Below are positions 1,948 through 56,990 of a stretch of 60,576 nt of DNA, in pieces (the first letter of the stretch is position 1; the number at the start of each line of letters is the position of its first letter). The notes below the pieces were generated by a model. The model made no database searches. It was not told the DNA's origin and worked only from the letters and a program-made list of their open reading frames with translations. Where the stretch lies: positions 1-60,576 of the forward strand of contig JAJYNW010000016.1 in the NCBI GenBank assembly GCA_021786105.1, written 5' to 3'. The stretch is from a bacterium (GTDB lineage Bacteria; Patescibacteriota; Microgenomatia; Daviesbacterales; UBA10151). A program made the position numbers and the translations under genes.

Positions 1948-3117
1948 ATGAGTTTAAAAGTTGGAATTATAGGAATGCCCAATGTGGGGAAAAGTACCCT
2001 TTTTAATGCCCTTTTGAAAAAGAGGGTGGCTTTAAGTGCTAATTACCCGTTTGCTACCATTGAGCCGAATGTGGGGGTGGTGGCGGTGCCTGATTCTAGG
2101 TTAAATGAGCTGGCGGAATTGGTAGCTGTGGAGGAGGGAATGATCCCGCAGGAGATCCTGAAACAAGTTCAGGATGACACCCCTGGGGTGGAGGCACAAA
2201 AATATTTTCCCCCGATTGTGCCGGCAGTGGTAGAGTTTGTAGATATTGCCGGTTTAGTTAAAGGTGCGGCAACTGGGGCAGGATTAGGGAATAAATTTTT
2301 ATCTCATATCCGGGAAGTGGATGCAATTGTGCATGTTTTACGGGATTTTGAAGATGCCAATATTATCAGGGAAGGCTCAGAAAACCCAAAATCAGATAAA
2401 GAGATCATAGAAACAGAGTTAATCCTGGCAGATATTGAAACAATAGATAAATTAATTTCTTTTGCAGAAAAAGAATTAAAGTTCTCTAAGGATCCTTTAG
2501 ACCCTAAAAAATTAGAGATTTTAAAAAAGATTAAAGAAGATTTAGATAAGGGAACTTGTATAGGGGATAAATTAATAAAAACCGCTGAAGGTATGGATCA
2601 GAGAATGCGGGGCTGGATTACTACGTTACCTCTTTTATCAATTAAACCGGTTTTATATGTTTACAATGTAGGAGAGGATCAATATAGTCAAATATCCTCC
2701 GATCGTGGTACAAATGAAAATGAAATGGCTATTTCAGCCAAAATGGAAGAGGAGTTAGCTGATTTGTCAGATGAGGAGAGGTTGGAATACTTAAAAGAGT
2801 TAGGGGTTGAGGAAACTGGTTTGGAAAGGCTGATTAAAAAGGCTTATGTTTTACTCGGATTAATTTCCTTTTTGACAGCCGGCAAAAAAGAAGTCCGGGC
2901 CTGGACTATAAAAAAAGGAACTTTGGCTCCCCAGGCTGCTGGGGTAATCCATACTGATTTTGAAAAAGGTTTTATTAGAGCTCAAGTTGTTAGCTTTGAA
3001 AAATTAATTGAAGCAGGATCTTTAGCAGTTGCTAAATCAAAAGGCTGGGTGAGGACTGAAGGAAAAGATTATATTATGCAGGATGGAGACGTGGTGGAGT
3101 TCTTGATCAGTTCTTAG
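1948..3117 (+). CDS. ychF: Ribosome-binding ATPase YchF
   Basis: GMPNVGKST, ANYPFATIEPN, DIAGLVKGA, C-terminal TGS domain (GKDYIMQDGDVVEF). Confidence 0.97.
   Translation: MSLKVGIIGMPNVGKSTLFNALLKKRVALSANYPFATIEPNVGVVAVPDSRLNELAELVAVEEGMIPQEILKQVQDDTPGVEAQKYFPPIVPAVVEFVDIAGLVKGAATGAGLGNKFLSHIREVDAIVHVLRDFEDANIIREGSENPKSDKEIIETELILADIETIDKLISFAEKELKFSKDPLDPKKLEILKKIKEDLDKGTCIGDKLIKTAEGMDQRMRGWITTLPLLSIKPVLYVYNVGEDQYSQISSDRGTNENEMAISAKMEEELADLSDEERLEYLKELGVEETGLERLIKKAYVLLGLISFLTAGKKEVRAWTIKKGTLAPQAAGVIHTDFEKGFIRAQVVSFEKLIEAGSLAVAKSKGWVRTEGKDYIMQDGDVVEFLISS
2152..2190. repeat. Two abutting palindromic repeat modules inserted in frame in ychF
   Basis: gagatcctgaaacaagttcaggatgac (2152-2178) then cacccctggggtg (2178-2190); encodes EILKQVQDDTPGV. 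Confidence 0.75.
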
Positions 3118-4121
3118 CCTTGCAAGGCTGGTTCTTTTAAGGCTATCTCGTAATATACCCCTTTAGTATTACCCCGTTTTTTAATTAAGTCCTGGTCCTG
3201 TAATTTTTTTAAATCGTATCGTAAAGTTCGTTCATTAATTGCTACGAACCTTCTTCTGATTATGTCAAAGCTAACTGATTTATGGTCTTTAATGATATTT
3301 AAAATCTCAGCGCGTCTGGGTAACAGTAAGTCTTCAATATCTACTTTTTGTTTTTCTAAGACTAATTTTTTAGCATTTTCAGCAGTTTCAGCTATAGCTT
3401 CTAACATAAATTCCAAATAATCTGTCACATCTTTTTCCGGTTCATTTAAAACCTGATAATATTCACTACGGTGGTTATCTAAATATTCCTCCAGTGCTAC
3501 TAATCCTTTCATTCCGTAATTGCCTTTTACTAAAACTGCCTGCAGCAGCAATCTGCCTACTCGGCCATTTCCATCTAAAAAAGGATGGATTTTTTCAAAA
3601 ATGAAATGGGCCAGGCAAGCTCTAACAGGAGTAAATTGCTCTTTTGGACTATTCGCAAATTTTAATAAACGTTGGGTTAAAGGAAGGATTTGGGAGGGTT
3701 TGGGAGGTAAATAAATTGCGATCCCCGCCGAATTAAATATCGCTTCCAAACCAGTTCTGAATTTTCCTGAATCCTGCTTATCTGTGAGTCCCTCCATCAC
3801 CATTTTATGCAGCTCTAAAATATCCTTAATATTTAGATCTTTGTATTTTTTTTGATGGATCCAGTTTAGGGCCTTAAGGATATTAAAAACCTCGGCTTTT
3901 TTTTGACTCTTGGAGGGATTTATTTGAATTTCCTTCATGGTGAGAGGGTTACCTTCAATTCGAGCTGAAAACAAGGAGCTTTTTAAAGTTGAATTTCTGC
4001 GAATGTTTATTTCTAATTCTGGTGGAATATCTACTGAATTAATTACTTCTTTTGAGGCTTCAATTGATTGAAGGAATTGAGAAATTTTAGCTGTAAGGAT
4101 ATATTTAGGAGGAATTAACAT
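3114..4121 (-). CDS. Fic family protein with C-terminal DeoR-like winged HTH
   Basis: Intact Fic motif HPFLDGNGRVGR; C-terminal INERTLRYDLKKL...KRGNTKGVYY. Confidence 0.92.
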   Translation of the reverse strand: MLIPPKYILTAKISQFLQSIEASKEVINSVDIPPELEINIRRNSTLKSSLFSARIEGNPLTMKEIQINPSKSQKKAEVFNILKALNWIHQKKYKDLNIKDILELHKMVMEGLTDKQDSGKFRTGLEAIFNSAGIAIYLPPKPSQILPLTQRLLKFANSPKEQFTPVRACLAHFIFEKIHPFLDGNGRVGRLLLQAVLVKGNYGMKGLVALEEYLDNHRSEYYQVLNEPEKDVTDYLEFMLEAIAETAENAKKLVLEKQKVDIEDLLLPRRAEILNIIKDHKSVSFDIIRRRFVAINERTLRYDLKKLQDQDLIKKRGNTKGVYYEIALKEPALQG

Positions 4122-4126
4122 ATATT

Positions 4127-4166
4127 CCTAATATTACCAGATATTACCTAATGTTGTCAGATATTG
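4127..4166. promoter_or_regulatory. Imperfect 20-bp tandem repeat over the fic promoter (candidate operator)
   Basis: cctaatattaccagatatta / cctaatgttgtcagatattg, 16/20 identical, directly upstream of the fic ATG. Confidence 0.45.
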
Positions 4167-4190
4167 CTAAATAATTCCTGAATTGATTGG

Positions 4191-4247
4191 AGAAAAGATA
4201 ATATTATCCAGGATGTTGATGTGGTGGAGTTTTTGGTAAGCAGTTAA
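4191..4247 (+). pseudogene. Degenerate duplicate of the last 19 codons of ychF
   Basis: RKDNIIQDVDVVEFLVSS* vs GKDYIMQDGDVVEFLISS* (3061-3117); 44/57 nt identical, no gaps. Confidence 0.85.
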
Positions 4248-4278: not shown

Positions 4279-5079
4279 TTAAGTTTGGGTGATTTTGTTT
4301 ATTCGTGTTTTAGGCCTGTAAGCTTCAGGGGCTAATTCAAGCATGCTCTCGTAAGCCCATTGGTCAATGTCCCCCTTAATTTTTCCTCTTTTAACAGTTC
4401 TGCCTAAAGTAAGAGTATATTTCCTCCATAAGTTAAGACCTTTTAGGTTTGAGTAATCAGTTACTCCTTCAATTTCCAACCCTACCGAGAAAACAGGTAT
4501 CTTGTCGGGATTTACGCCTTTTTCTCCTGCCCGATCCATCAGTCGGGAAAGAGGGCCTCCTCTAAACGGGCGAAGCGAATCTCTTCTTCCGCCTTGGGGG
4601 GCCAGAAAGACTAAGCCGCCTTGTTCTAATTCTTCAATTGAAGTATCCAGATAGTCATTCATTGCTTCGGTTGGATTAATGTTCCGCCAGGGAATAGGTT
4701 TACCTTTCGTTTTGAGTTCGTTCTCTTTTAGTCTGGTGTCTCCGGTAATGATGGTTGCCAAACTAACATCGCCAAGTCCGCATAGTATGTCCAGATAAAA
4801 AGGTCTCTGGTGTGCTGCAATAGGAATCCTAGTCGGTCGTCTTCTGGCTTCTTTGCTATTAAGATTTAGAGCTACTAAATCTGCCAAAAAATCTCCTTTG
4901 GAAAAATGCGGTGTTAAACCAATTGCTCCGTTGCCTTCGGCAAGTGCTTCGTTGAGCGCTGTGAGATTCCCAGCGGCCGCTTCCCTGAATTCAATGGACC
5001 ACAAGGTTTTTAATCCATAAGCAGTAACTACTCTTCTGACGGGGGTGACTATATTTTTAATTCTTTCTAAATCCGCCAT
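4279..5079 (-). CDS. PlsC-like (lyso)phospholipid acyltransferase, divergent
   Basis: HX4D motif PHFSKGD and block-III-like VFLAPQGGR. Confidence 0.7.
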   Translation of the reverse strand: MADLERIKNIVTPVRRVVTAYGLKTLWSIEFREAAAGNLTALNEALAEGNGAIGLTPHFSKGDFLADLVALNLNSKEARRRPTRIPIAAHQRPFYLDILCGLGDVSLATIITGDTRLKENELKTKGKPIPWRNINPTEAMNDYLDTSIEELEQGGLVFLAPQGGRRDSLRPFRGGPLSRLMDRAGEKGVNPDKIPVFSVGLEIEGVTDYSNLKGLNLWRKYTLTLGRTVKRGKIKGDIDQWAYESMLELAPEAYRPKTRINKITQT

Positions 5080-5165
5080 AATTTATGGGATATATTACTT
5101 GAGTGATGGGGTGAAATCAAGTCGGTTGGTTGATTTCCGCAGGGGATTAAGTATAATGACTGATT

Positions 5166-6089
5166 ATGCAAATCGAATTAGACTCAAGGTCATTATTTGA
5201 AAGATATGTTGCTCCTCGTTTTGACGAGATGGTGCATCTGAATGTAGATCCAGCAGTAGGCGAAGAATATGTAGAATTAATGGCTAAAGGCGGCAGGCCG
5301 GTCCTTTATGGGAATCATCAGGGGCACGGGGACGGGTGGCTTTTAGGTAAAGTTGTAGAGTATTTAAGAGAAAAAGCTAAGGAGGCAGGAGTAGAATTTC
5401 CCGGTGTTGTTTTACCTCTTGCTCGGTCAATGTTTACTGGAGACCAAGGATGGGTTCTTAAAAAGATAACTGAATTATCGGCTCCTATTCTACAGAGAAG
5501 AGGATTGCATATGATTCCGTATACAAGAAATAAAGACGAAATAAATTATGGATTAAAGAAAAACCAAGCCGAGGTAAGAGAGATGGCTAAAGCAGCAAGA
5601 GAGGGCTATGGTTTTTGTTACTTACCAGAAGCGAGTATACAAGGGGGCAGACACAAACATTTTTGGGGATTTTTCCTGGGTGGAGAAGTAAATGGTGTAA
5701 TAGCTGCTGATGATAAAGACGGGTTTGCCGGTTTTTACGATTTGATTAACAGATTTGGTCATGTTAAAGGAGAGACATTCTTTATGGGTGTTGCAATGGA
5801 AGGAAGCTATCGGTTTATGGGAGCAGATATTCCTATTCCAACTATGGAATTGTTTCAAAGCTTATTTGCAGATTCATCTCGTCCTGCGCAAGTTACTATA
5901 GAAAGCCCCATTACTGTAGCAAGATTGAAGAGTGAGCTCCAAGAAGATTGGCGGGCAGATGGTCATCTCCTTAATAAATTTTTGATGAGATCGGTAGTCA
6001 AAGATCTTCCCCTTGCTTCGAGGGGGATTTATCGTAATATGCCAGATTTAGAGTTTGCAGCTAAACCTGCTGTGTTGAGCAGCCGTTAA
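5166..6089 (+). CDS. PlsC-like acyltransferase, divergent
   Basis: HX4D motif NHQGHGD and CYLPEASIQGGR. Confidence 0.65.
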   Translation: MQIELDSRSLFERYVAPRFDEMVHLNVDPAVGEEYVELMAKGGRPVLYGNHQGHGDGWLLGKVVEYLREKAKEAGVEFPGVVLPLARSMFTGDQGWVLKKITELSAPILQRRGLHMIPYTRNKDEINYGLKKNQAEVREMAKAAREGYGFCYLPEASIQGGRHKHFWGFFLGGEVNGVIAADDKDGFAGFYDLINRFGHVKGETFFMGVAMEGSYRFMGADIPIPTMELFQSLFADSSRPAQVTIESPITVARLKSELQEDWRADGHLLNKFLMRSVVKDLPLASRGIYRNMPDLEFAAKPAVLSSR

Positions 6090-6135: not shown

Positions 6136-6417
6136 ATGAATTCATATTATTTAACATTAGTTATAAAACCTGACTTGGAAGAGAAGGACCGGAAGGATCT
6201 GTTGGACTCTCTTGTTAAAAAGCTAGTGGGAGAAGACGGCAAAGTGGAAAAGGAAGATTTGTGGGGAGCCCGTTCTTTGGCTTACCCAATCAAAAGGCAA
6301 ACCTCAGGTTACTATGCCCACTATGAAGTTCAGGCTGATCCTAAAAATGCCAAAATTCTTGACAAAAGTTTAAAAATGGAAGAAGATATTTTACGATACC
6401 TGCTTGTGAGAAAGTAA
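6136..6417 (+). CDS. rpsF: 30S ribosomal protein S6
   Basis: EDLWGARSLAYPIK, EDILRYLLVR; rpsF-ssb-rpsR order. Confidence 0.97.
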   Translation: MNSYYLTLVIKPDLEEKDRKDLLDSLVKKLVGEDGKVEKEDLWGARSLAYPIKRQTSGYYAHYEVQADPKNAKILDKSLKMEEDILRYLLVRK

Positions 6418-55757: not shown

Positions 55758-56990
55758 ATGAAAAAATTTAAGATTTTGGCAAAGGATGGCAAGGCTAGAG
55801 TTGGGCAGTTAGAAACCCCACACGGGGTGATTGAAACTCCGAATTTTAACCCAGTAGGGACGCAGGGGTCAGTTAAGGCTTTAGGGCCGCGAGAGCTCAA
55901 GGAAATCGGCGTCCAGATAATTTTAGGCAATACTTATCATTTAATGCTCAGGCCCGGTATTGACCTTATAAAGAAGTTTGGAGGACTGCATAAGTTTATC
56001 AACTGGGATAAGCCGATTATGACTGATTCCGGAGGTTTTCAGGTATTTTCCTTGGGGATAGCGTTGGAACACGGCAACAGTAAAGTGCTGCGGGAAGACG
56101 AGGGCGAGCTGGAGGCTGATAACTTTAAAAAGCGACCCAGGCTAAACAAAATCACGGAAGATGGGGTTATTTTTCAGTCTCATTTGGATGGGTCCAGGCA
56201 CGTTTTGACCCCGGAAAAATCCATTCAAATCCAGCGTGATTTAGGAGCGGATTTAATTGTGGCTTTTGATGACCACGAATCGGCAAAGCATACCAAAGCG
56301 GAAATGGAAAAATCTTTGGAACTGACAGAAAAGTGGGGTTTGAGAAGCTTGAAGGAGTACAAAGAGAGAAAGGGTGTAAACGTAAATCACCCGGAGGGTG
56401 TTAATGTAGCTACACCTCTTCTTTATGGGGTGGTGCACGGAGGGACACATAAAGATTTAAGGATCAGATCAGCCCAGTTTACTGATGAAAACTTTGAAGC
56501 TATAGCTATCGGCGGAATTTATGGAGATCACCAACAGCTTTGCCAAATCATTGAGTGGGTGAATCAAGCGACCTCGGAAGAAAAACCCCGGCATTTACTG
56601 GGAATTGGTGAAGTTCAGGATTTGTTTAACGGCATAGAGCGAGGCATGGATTTTTTTGATTGCGTTGCTCCAACGAGACGTGCCCGCTTTGGTTCTTTGT
56701 ATATCAGTCCTAAAAACGGTGGCAGCAGAAAAAATAGTTTTACCATAAATATCAGGCAGAGCGGTTATATTTCTGATAAAAAACCAATTGATCCGGGTTG
56801 TCTTTGCTACACCTGTCAAAACTTCAGCCGGGCCTACTTGCGCCATCTTTATATTGCTGGAGAAATTCTCTATCATCAGTTAGCCACATATCACAATATC
56901 TACTTTATAACTAAACTGGTAGGAAATATTAGACAAGCTATCAAAAACGGTGAATTTAAGAGAATGAAAAATGAATATATCGGCAGGTAA
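55758..56990 (+). CDS. tgt: Queuine tRNA-ribosyltransferase
   Basis: TDSGGFQVFSL, HLLGIG, FDCVAPTR, CLCYTC...H zinc site; insertion GVNVNHPEGVNVATP. Confidence 0.97.
   Translation: MKKFKILAKDGKARVGQLETPHGVIETPNFNPVGTQGSVKALGPRELKEIGVQIILGNTYHLMLRPGIDLIKKFGGLHKFINWDKPIMTDSGGFQVFSLGIALEHGNSKVLREDEGELEADNFKKRPRLNKITEDGVIFQSHLDGSRHVLTPEKSIQIQRDLGADLIVAFDDHESAKHTKAEMEKSLELTEKWGLRSLKEYKERKGVNVNHPEGVNVATPLLYGVVHGGTHKDLRIRSAQFTDENFEAIAIGGIYGDHQQLCQIIEWVNQATSEEKPRHLLGIGEVQDLFNGIERGMDFFDCVAPTRRARFGSLYISPKNGGSRKNSFTINIRQSGYISDKKPIDPGCLCYTCQNFSRAYLRHLYIAGEILYHQLATYHNIYFITKLVGNIRQAIKNGEFKRMKNEYIGR
56371..56419. repeat. CACCC-N-GGGTG REP-like modules in frame in tgt
   Basis: agggtgtaaacgtaaatcacccggagggtgttaatgtagctacacctct. 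Confidence 0.6.

What the first reader, a model, noticed from the sequence alone, without database searches (positions are those of the whole stretch)
3061..4247. Fic gene sits between ychF and a decayed copy of the ychF 3' end (integration scar)
Seen: 57-nt direct repeats (44/57 identical) enclose the fic gene, and the downstream copy has lost conserved residues (Y to N, DGD to DVD). Known: elements integrating into gene 3' ends restore the gene with a replacement terminus. Inference: ychF is an attB site, and this 1.1-kb Fic cassette is the relic of an integrative element whose integrase is gone.
Basis: partly seen in the sequence, partly recalled or inferred. Interest (0 to 1): 0.62.

Follow-up and report, generated by a model that had tools for sequence, protein, structure and literature searches.

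The report
Fic cassette insertion scar at ychF
A one-gene Fic (SoFic-type defence-like) cassette sits at the very end of the essential-type GTPase gene ychF of an ultra-small groundwater bacterium and is bracketed by two copies of the gene's last ~20 codons; the same cassette is bracketed in the same way at other genes in related bacteria, so it is a small mobile unit that carries no integrase of its own.

Summary
Window 3061-3117 (end of ychF) and 4191-4247 are 44/57 identical, in frame, and both end in a stop codon; 0 of 2000 shuffles come close.

The reading "insertion scar with a substitute gene end" is supported. The reading [quoted passage not shown] is not.

What lies between the copies is a complete 1.06-kb unit: a class II Fic AMP-transferase with a winged-helix tail (PADLOC SoFic model, E 5.6e-53), preceded by five 10-nt iteron-like repeats (4129-4178) that end one base before the relic. 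Fic gene and repeat array recur together in about 90 distinct Microgenomates loci, a third of them next to ychF. About one locus in ten shows the same bracket: a 31-100 nt duplication of whatever was hit (ychF three times, an M1 peptidase, a glycosyltransferase, a xer-like gene, a terminator).

No integrase or transposase turned up among 30 neighbouring cargo genes. Differences between the copies are mostly synonymous (26 against 13 codons), so the two ends diverged as working gene ends in different lineages.

Unexpected: within this one species the relic has two alleles that differ at 18 positions in 50 nt, inside 9.9 kb that is otherwise identical.

The parts
1948..3117 (+). ychF, intact (389 aa)
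   Evidence: Pfam MMR_HSR1 plus YchF-GTPase_C covering profile positions 1-82 of 84; the only full copy in the genome.
3052..3117 (+). Resident copy of the ychF end (repeat copy 1), the working terminus RTEGKDYIMQDGDVVEFLISS*
3114..3131 (+). Terminator-like hairpin directly after the ychF stop, lying inside the last fic codons on the other strand. The ychF stop and the fic stop overlap in TTAG (3114-3117).
   Evidence: sequence. The same overlapping-stop junction is seen in L122 (ychF) and L066 (pepN).
3114..4121 (-). fic: class II Fic AMP-transferase with HPFLDGNGRVGR, an N-terminal inhibitory SxxxEG helix (SARIEG) and a C-terminal winged helix; SoFic type
   Evidence: Pfam Fic 1.6e-18 and HTH_12; PADLOC SoFic 5.6e-53 over residues 34-324; PDB relatives 4rgl, FICD, SoFic.
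4129..4178 (-). Array of five 10-nt iteron-like repeats (GGYAATATYW) directly upstream of the fic start; the conserved 5' end of the cassette
   Evidence: 5 matches against 0.36 expected; the array is present upstream of fic in all 27 distinct contexts printed.
4180..4229 (.). Variable patch: the only place where two same-species assemblies differ (17 substitutions and 1 indel); left part of the relic
4191..4247 (+). Relic copy of the ychF end (repeat copy 2, allele A), non-coding, with an in-frame stop at 4245-4247
   Evidence: an in-frame TGA lies upstream at 4179-4181
4279..5079 (-). orf266, a PlsC-like acyltransferase (HX4D); the gene that faced ychF before the insertion
   Evidence: HFSKGD motif. 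Homologues lie directly convergent with ychF in L094/L096 and sit with gpsA and KAS genes in L091, L095, L097.
5166..6089 (+). orf307dn, a second PlsC-like acyltransferase (HX4D), a common resident just upstream of rpsF
   Evidence: the unclustered neighbour L047:2272-3315 hits Pfam Acyltransferase.
6136..6417 (+). rpsF, start of the conserved backbone rpsF-ssb-rpsR that closes the variable interval

Best explanation
The 1.06-kb stretch 3118-4179 is a self-contained single-gene cassette. It holds a SoFic-type Fic AMP-transferase with a DNA-binding winged-helix tail and five 10-nt repeats in front of it; these are probably the protein's own binding sites, which is inferred. The cassette was inserted at the last codons of ychF. 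The insertion left two copies of the ychF end. The upstream copy completes the working gene, and its stop codon overlaps the fic stop. The downstream copy is a non-coding leftover still joined to the gene that used to face ychF, a PlsC-like acyltransferase. Shown: the cassette, not a larger integrase element, is the recurring unit, and it is bracketed in the same way at several different genes. Inferred: the two ychF ends come from different lineages, because their differences are mostly synonymous. So the cassette most likely arrived together with a piece of a foreign ychF end and entered by the host's own recombination. One route is a looped-out circle [gene end-fic-repeats] recombining with the orthologous gene (Campbell type). 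Another is one homologous end plus one illegitimate end. This would also explain why a third of all copies sit at ychF. How the cassette reaches a new target gene in the first place is unknown.
For: The repeat is real and in frame. The iteron array ends at 4178 and the relic or variable patch starts at 4180. Array plus fic are conserved together in every context, whether or not ychF is the neighbour. Brackets of the same geometry, with one copy at the fic 3' end and one just beyond the array, occur at these places: ychF in G036 (81 nt, extending 46 nt past the stop) and L122 (53 nt, 87%); pepN in L066, whose relic starts directly at the array and whose gene end matches the window's own intact pepN end; a GT2 gene in L174; a xer-like gene in L176; an fn3 ORF in L057; and a cyclophilin terminator in L159 (31/32). 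Empty ychF-acyltransferase junctions exist. Differing codons are 26 synonymous against 13 changed (P = 5e-8 against neutral decay, 0.005 against 45%). Relic allele B matches G030's working ychF end at 55/66 nt and 18/18 at the end, against 46/66 to the resident end. The fic tree is star-like while ychF shows a deep, 100%-supported split, and fic identity stays near 65% whether ychF identity is 48% or 75%. Fic of L092 is 78.6% identical although ychF is 68% and orf266 is 51%. ychF relationships disagree with DnaB within the genus. No recombinase was found among 30 cargo ORFs and the genome has no reverse transcriptase.
Against: The AU test does not reject host-like topology for fic (p 0.24), so horizontal spread rests on branch lengths and identities. 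Near-identical non-coding brackets (L159 31/32, L174 35/39) fit a duplication made at insertion as well as, or better than, an imported end. About 90% of loci show no bracket; this is read as age, which is an assumption. Some paralogues have the iteron array itself on both sides (own genome C14, L164), so not every flanking repeat is target-derived. First insertion into a new gene is not explained by homologous recombination. The two-allele patch is not explained by this model alone.
Confidence: 0.6

Rival explanations
1. Target-site duplication made at insertion. An enzyme acting in trans, encoded elsewhere or lost, cuts the two strands 30-100 nt apart, joins the cassette, and gap filling duplicates the target. 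The copies were identical at birth; the upstream one then stayed under selection while the downstream one decayed.
For: The near-identical brackets include non-coding targets: L159 31/32, L174 35/39, L122 47/54. The G036 duplication runs 46 nt past the stop. The left 39 nt of allele A look like a neutrally decayed copy of the resident end, with 1 synonymous and 4 changed codons. The cassette has sharp ends 0-25 nt beyond the array and 0-16 nt beyond the fic stop.
Against: For window allele B, synonymous sites between the copies are saturated (10 synonymous codons of 22) while only 4 residues changed and Y, DGD and VVEF are intact. A relic evolving neutrally for that time would be unrecognisable. 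Overall there is an excess of synonymous differences (P 0.005 even if 45% are allowed). No transposase, terminal inverted repeats or reverse transcriptase were found. No known prokaryotic transposase makes duplications this long and this variable (own knowledge).
Confidence: 0.2
2. ychF's 3' end is the attB of an integrase-driven integrative element whose attP carries a substitute ychF end, as with e14 in icd; the integrase and the rest of the element were later deleted, leaving fic.
For: The architecture is that of icd-e14-icdC, with a working gene with a substitute end, cargo, and a displaced end fragment (PMC13626634). Differences are synonymous-biased as in that case. ychF is hit at least three times.
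Against: No integrase was found in any of about 35 ychF-rpsF intervals or beside any bracketed copy. The relic abuts the conserved cassette end within one base, leaving no room for deleted element DNA. The same cassette is bracketed at unrelated genes. Bracket lengths of 31-100 nt and differing junctions argue against one att core. The genome's only two tyrosine recombinases are on other contigs.
Confidence: 0.1
3. Reverse polarity. fic was already resident next to ychF, and the segment [foreign ychF end - acyltransferase genes] was imported from a fic-less relative. The import was anchored by homology in rpsF/ssb and joined illegitimately next to the fic repeats.
For: fic and ychF of the window both group with G015, which also has ychF-fic. 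The relic is contiguous with orf266 just as in the empty-site genomes. Homology-facilitated illegitimate recombination is documented (PMC3240628).
Against: It does not explain why the join falls exactly at the cassette's conserved end here and in L066, L122, L159 and L174. It does not explain brackets whose outer flank is not a conserved anchor gene. The window's ychF-fic junction (4-nt stop overlap plus hairpin) differs from G015's 49-nt overlap, so the left side was also remade.
Confidence: 0.07
4. The downstream copy is not a scar but a functional site (operator, promoter or RNA) that resembles ychF by chance or convergence.
For: It lies 70-126 nt upstream of fic. Allele A carries a perfect 12-nt palindrome. 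Some Fic paralogues are flanked by their own repeat arrays.
Against: It is in frame, stop-aligned, and 83% identical to a real ychF end of another genus. No promoter-like site was found there. Folding is no better than shuffles. It is absent from most fic loci.
Confidence: 0.03

Closest known systems
e14 cryptic prophage in icd of E. coli K-12 (icd ... e14 ... icdC)
   Same: The inserted DNA sits in the 3' end of a housekeeping gene. The gene stays intact through a substitute end. The displaced original end remains as a fragment on the far side. Differences between the two ends are largely synonymous or conservative (PMC13626634).
   Different: e14 is 15 kb with its own integrase and SOS-induced excision. 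Here the insert is 1.06 kb, holds one gene, and has no recombinase in it or near it. The same insert is bracketed at several unrelated genes with variable duplication length.
SoFic-type Fic proteins (class II Fic AMP-transferases with a winged-helix domain; single-gene candidate anti-phage system in PADLOC)
   Same: Near full-length match to the PADLOC SoFic model (E 5.6e-53). HPFxDGNGRxxR motif, SxxxEG inhibitory helix and C-terminal winged helix are present. Solved relatives include SoFic, FICD and 4rgl.
   Different: Below the NCBIfam equivalog cut-off for SoFic (64 against 550 bits). To my knowledge, SoFic has not been described with the 10-nt repeat array or the bracketed insertion.
Homology-facilitated illegitimate recombination and Campbell-type single-crossover insertion during natural transformation
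   Same: They need no element-encoded enzyme. One homologous anchor in a conserved gene explains re-entry at the same gene in other lineages and the diverged duplicate (PMC3240628). Mosaic, discontinuous donor tracts are reported after transformation (PMC13344027), which could bear on the two-allele patch.
   Different: These are generic processes, not tied to one cassette. The sharp, recurring cassette ends and the insertions at new targets suggest something more specific.
Transposable elements with target-site duplications
   Same: Direct repeats of target sequence flank a discrete insert found at many sites.
   Different: The duplications here are 31-100 nt, variable and often diverged. No terminal inverted repeats and no transposase were found. 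Known prokaryotic duplications are short and of fixed length (own knowledge).

Membership tests
Integrase-driven integrative element at a gene 3' end (e14/icd type) | Direct repeats made of the target gene's 3' end bracket the insert, and the upstream copy keeps the gene intact | tested here: met
Integrase-driven integrative element at a gene 3' end (e14/icd type) | A tyrosine or serine recombinase is encoded inside the bracket, here or in related occupied sites | tested here: not met
   Only fic lies inside the bracket. There was no recombinase hit among 30 cargo ORFs of relatives, and orf520 of G036 has no family. The genome's two PF00589 genes are on contigs C12 and C15.
Integrase-driven integrative element at a gene 3' end (e14/icd type) | One fixed attachment core and one target gene | tested here: not met
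   Brackets of 31, 32, 39, 40, 53, 57-66, 81 and about 100 nt occur at ychF, pepN, a GT2 gene, a xer-like gene, an fn3 ORF and a terminator.
Integrase-driven integrative element at a gene 3' end (e14/icd type) | Excision restores a chimeric gene and yields a circle | not testable with these tools
Pattern scans of metagenome and genome collections found no other copy of the junction.
Fic family, class II (auto-inhibited AMP-transferase), SoFic type | Catalytic motif HPFx[D/E]GN[G/K]RxxR | tested here: met
   HPFLDGNGRVGR; invariant H179 P180 F181 G184 G186 R187 R190 in 15 homologues; Pfam Fic.
Fic family, class II (auto-inhibited AMP-transferase), SoFic type | N-terminal inhibitory helix (S/T)xxxE(G/N) | tested here: met
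   SARIEGN, with S52, E56, G57 and N58 invariant. The class definition is from my own knowledge.
Fic family, class II (auto-inhibited AMP-transferase), SoFic type | Full-length match to the SoFic model and C-terminal winged helix | tested here: met
   PADLOC PDLC03963 at 5.6e-53, residues 34-324; Pfam HTH_12. However, the protein is below the NCBIfam equivalog cut-off.
Fic family, class II (auto-inhibited AMP-transferase), SoFic type | AMPylation activity and anti-phage effect | not testable with these tools
   Needs expression and assay.
DDE or other transposon with target-site duplication | Transposase gene, terminal inverted repeats, and a short duplication of fixed length | tested here: not met
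   No transposase. No inverted repeat at 3118/4179 among the pairs listed. Duplications are long and variable.
Diversity-generating retroelement (considered for the two-allele patch) | Reverse transcriptase, a template repeat, and adenine-specific changes | tested here: not met
   No RVT_1 in the genome. No third copy. The changes involve all four bases.

The most novel reading that the evidence does not exclude
The SoFic-type gene plus its 10-nt repeat array is a new kind of minimal mobile defence cassette of CPR bacteria. It encodes no recombinase, yet it inserts at gene ends and terminators with long (31-100 nt) target duplications, and it then hops between orthologous sites of different lineages by carrying a piece of the neighbouring gene end. 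The brackets stay recombinationally active, producing the two sharply different relic alleles seen in one otherwise identical population.
Probability: 0.22. Interest if true: 0.85.

Novelty: new variant of a known kind. Interest (0 to 1): 0.62.

Why it matters
Insertion into the end of a gene, with a substitute end supplied, is classically the work of phage-type integrases. Here the same footprint surrounds a 1-kb, one-gene, defence-like cassette with no recombinase, in genomes of about 1 Mb that have very few mobile elements. It recurs at several genes across Microgenomates. If the cassette moves by host recombination using a carried gene end, this is a simple route by which defence genes spread through streamlined, uncultivated bacteria, and it makes a conserved gene (ychF) a shared landing pad. 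It also warns annotators that the last codons of ychF, pepN and similar genes in these genomes may be imported. The two-allele patch offers a natural marker for recombination in a population that is otherwise clonal.

Tried and rejected
- **Chance similarity:** rejected by shuffles and by the genome-wide search.
- **Structured RNA in the relic or intergenic region:** z-scores of -1.0 and -0.1, so rejected.
- **Promoter inside the relic:** none found. The only minus-strand promoter-like site lies in the repeat array, 4131-4160.
- **Diversity-generating retroelement for the variable patch:** rejected.
- **A silent allele-B cassette elsewhere in the genome:** none found.
- **Relics at ychF in the other relatives:** none in 27 short loci or 14 of the long ones, and none in L092.
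- **ychF-end fragments travelling with fic to non-ychF loci:** none found. The 'PIKNSTTSPS' Fic tails of G015, G014, G003 and L092 are simply read-through of the antisense ychF end.
- **Exact-pattern scans for the relic's right end:** 0 hits in metagenome contigs and in genome contigs.
- **AU test of fic against the host split:** not rejected (p 0.24), so no claim of topological conflict is made.
- **Which ychF end is native:** undecided. G015's end matches the resident copy at 51/66 and relic B at 47/66. G001's matches at 45 and 49.
- **Do resident ends of the window and L122 resemble each other more than the relics do?** A hand count gave 74-76% like-with-like against 69-70% crosswise, too weak to use.
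- **orf520 of G036 as a hidden recombinase:** no family hit, and only faint AAA+ similarity.
Full report
**Setting.** The window is contig C22 of a 1.04-Mb, 92%-complete genome of a Microgenomates (CPR/Patescibacteria) bacterium. Earlier notes call it Candidatus Daviesbacteria, and the related records carry Davies-, Levy- and Blackburnbacteria names. The gene order is:
- ychF (1948-3117, plus strand)
- fic (4121-3114, minus strand)
- a 157-nt spacer
- orf266 (5079-4279, minus strand)
- orf307dn (5166-6089, plus strand)
- rpsF-ssb-rpsR

**The observation.**
- Positions 3061-3117 and 4191-4247 are 44/57 identical without gaps. The repeat finder gives 49 nt at 84%.
- Both copies are in the ychF frame and end in a stop: GKDYIMQDGDVVEFLISS* against RKDNIIQDVDVVEFLVSS*.
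- The local alignment score is 58. In 2000 shuffles of the downstream 3 kb the mean was 20 and the maximum 31. Nothing else in the window exceeds 23.
- The genome has no third copy.

**What lies between the copies.** Fic is a class II Fic AMP-transferase.
- It has the HPFLDGNGRVGR motif, the N-terminal inhibitory SARIEGN helix and a C-terminal winged helix.
- It matches the PADLOC SoFic model almost end to end (E 5.6e-53).
- Solved relatives are SoFic, FICD and 4rgl.

Directly upstream of its ATG lie five 10-nt repeats, GGYAATATYW, at 4129-4178 (5 matches against 0.36 expected). I extracted the 160 nt upstream of fic from all loci fetched up to that point. Every one of the 27 distinct contexts carries three to six such repeats just before the start codon, whether or not ychF is the neighbour. 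The conserved protein ends at ...GVYYE plus 2-5 residues. So the recurring unit is [repeat array + fic], about 1.06 kb. In the window the array ends at 4178 and the ychF-like sequence begins at 4180-4183. At the other end the fic stop overlaps the ychF stop in TTAG, and a terminator-like hairpin for ychF (3114-3131) lies inside the last fic codons.

**The neighbourhood in relatives.** In 55 of 61 relatives ychF was found, and the backbone is ychF-[0 to 4.9 kb]-rpsF-ssb-rpsR-orf213-orf381. The interval may be:
- empty;
- occupied by fic alone;
- occupied by fic plus other genes;
- occupied by quite different genes.

Clustering 59 interval ORFs gave fic (11), the orf307dn family (9), a third family (7) and 31 singletons. 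Pfam on 30 of them found gpsA, acyltransferase, a trypsin-like peptidase, a glycosyl hydrolase, HSP20, UPF0047 and a histidine kinase. It found no integrase, transposase or phage gene.

orf266 and orf307dn both carry HX4D. Their homologues sit with gpsA and ketoacyl synthase genes.

In L094/L096 an orf266 homologue lies directly convergent with ychF, 4 nt apart. That is the arrangement expected before fic came in. The window's relic stands in exactly that relation to orf266, 31 nt apart.

**The same bracket elsewhere.** I searched each relative's own ychF end against its interval.
- **G036** (another genus): YGDVVEFLIGS* lies beyond fic and a 520-aa ORF (score 43, 0/2000 shuffles). Later alignment showed an 81-nt duplication running 46 nt past the stop.

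I then asked whether fic copies at other genes are bracketed by the end of their neighbour. They are.
- **L066** (Daviesbacteria): fic abuts an M1 peptidase gene, with overlapping stops in TTAA. A copy of that gene's last ~16 codons starts directly at the repeat array. The window's own intact orthologue ends with the same peptide, which proves the repeat is target-derived.

A scan of 90 distinct fic loci added further cases:
- **L122:** ychF, 53 nt, with the relic KEYVMKDGDVVEFLVGN* just before rpsF and the same TTAG junction as the window.
- **L174:** a GT2 glycosyltransferase end, 35/39.
- **L176:** a xer-like recombinase gene end, about 100 nt.
- **L057:** an fn3 ORF end, 27/31.
- **L159:** a palindromic terminator after a cyclophilin gene, 31/32.

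In all, about one locus in ten is bracketed. 27 of 77 loci in the second batch have ychF as neighbour.

Not all flanking repeats are target-derived. A distant paralogue in the window's own genome (C14) and L164 have the repeat array itself on both sides.

**Were the two copies identical at birth?**
- Across five coding brackets the differing codons are 26 synonymous and 13 changed. P = 5e-8 if one expects 25% synonymous. P = 0.005 if one allows 45%, the rough value for one selected and one decaying copy.
- The strongest case is the window's second allele (below). It has 10 synonymous and 4 changed codons in 22, with Y, DGD and VVEF intact.
- At the DNA level this allele is as good a ychF end as any. 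It is 55/66 identical to G030's, 18/18 over the last 18 nt, but only 46/66 to the resident end.
- A relic drifting neutrally long enough to saturate the synonymous sites of its partner would be unrecognisable. So these two ends diverged as working ends in different lineages and were then brought together.
- The near-identical non-coding brackets (L159, L174) would fit a duplication made at insertion. Both processes may occur.

**Is fic moving between lineages?**
- fic identity stays near 65% whether ychF identity is 48% or 75% (r = 0.43).
- The ychF tree has a deep split of length about 0.9 with 100% support. The fic tree is a star.
- The AU test does not reject the host split for fic (p 0.24), so this is a conflict of branch lengths, not of topology.
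- L092 has ychF-fic-orf266 in the same order, with fic 78.6% identical but ychF 68% and orf266 51%.
- Within the genus, DnaB places G001 closest (92%) and G015 at 87% like the rest. ychF is 82-90% identical to G015, about 72% to the others and 51-65% to G001's two copies.
- The ychF region itself is therefore exchanged.

**Two alleles.** L082/L086 (GCA_023487645.1) is 100% identical to the window over 9.9 kb except for 17 substitutions and one indel, all within 4180-4229.
- Allele A (the window's) is also in L081, L083, L084 and L089.
- Allele B is in L082/L086 and L088.
- In SRR10252151 one contig ends at 4179 and another begins at 4230. That is what an assembly graph does when both alleles are present.

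Allele B reads KRTERKDYVMADGDVVEFLVSS*.

Allele A is a mosaic. Its left 39 nt look like a neutrally decayed copy of the resident end, with 1 synonymous and 4 changed codons. Its right 18 nt equal allele B, with 4 synonymous and 1 changed against the resident end. Two private changes of allele A create a perfect palindrome, GATAATATTATC (4197-4208).

Several explanations are excluded:
- The changes are not adenine-specific.
- The genome has no reverse transcriptase.
- There is no donor copy in the genome.
- There is no RNA structure.

I cannot explain this. Two candidates remain. One is ectopic exchange between the two bracket copies with error-prone repair. The other is old alleles that escape homogenisation because the patch is too diverged for homologous exchange; mosaic transformation tracts are reported in PMC13344027.

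**Verdict.** The scar reading is right. The closest known case is icd-e14-icdC (PMC13626634).
- The unit is the complete fic cassette itself.
- It has no integrase here or in any relative examined.
- It is not tied to ychF.
- Its brackets vary in length.

My best account is a recombinase-less defence-type cassette. It is inserted with a duplication of the target, and it then spreads between orthologous sites by host recombination, taking a piece of the neighbouring gene end along. The first step, entry into a new target, remains unexplained. I file it as a new variant of a known kind.

Noticed in passing
window 4180-4229 (and L082/L086, L088, L085, L087): Two sharply different alleles of the relic's left part within one species: 18 differences in 50 nt and none in the other 9.9 kb. 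Both alleles appear to coexist in one sample, because the assembly breaks exactly at 4179 and 4230.
   Followed up: partly
window 4197-4208: A perfect 12-nt palindrome, GATAATATTATC, is present only in allele A. It is created by that allele's two private changes relative to the ychF sequence GATTATATTATG.
   Followed up: no
own genome C14:2178-2207 and 3311-3340 (L006): A distant Fic paralogue (28% identical) is flanked by perfect 30-nt direct repeats. The repeats are themselves three GCGCGCAA units spaced 10-11 nt apart, so its own repeat array lies on both sides of the gene.
   Followed up: partly
window 4279-6089; L091, L094-L097, L038: The ychF-rpsF interval often holds a small lipid gene set (gpsA, ketoacyl synthases, FabD-like, two HX4D acyltransferases) in these CPR genomes.
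   Followed up: partly
G001:C4 (L099) and G001:C17 (L100): G001, the closest relative by DnaB (92%), has two ychF copies that are only 51-65% identical to the window's. The copy next to fic is split into two ORFs (273 and 85 aa).
   Followed up: partly
L176:3122-3448 and 4740-5672 (locus turned so that fic is on the minus strand): In a Curtissbacteria contig the fic cassette lies between a full xer-like tyrosine recombinase gene and a duplicated fragment of that gene's C-terminal end (about 100 nt, 78% at protein level).
   Followed up: partly
L046:2266-3825 (G036): A 520-aa ORF with no family and only faint AAA+ similarity lies inside the ychF bracket together with fic. It may be a partner gene.
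   Followed up: partly
G015, G014, G003, L092 (L033, L008, L026, L093): In these genomes the fic ORF runs 49 nt into the antisense of the ychF end. This gives Fic a tail, ...PIKNSTTSPS, that is merely the reverse reading of GDVVEF.
   Followed up: yes
window 55916-55935: A single weak match (3 mismatches) to two units of the 10-nt repeat, far from any fic gene; probably chance.
   Followed up: no
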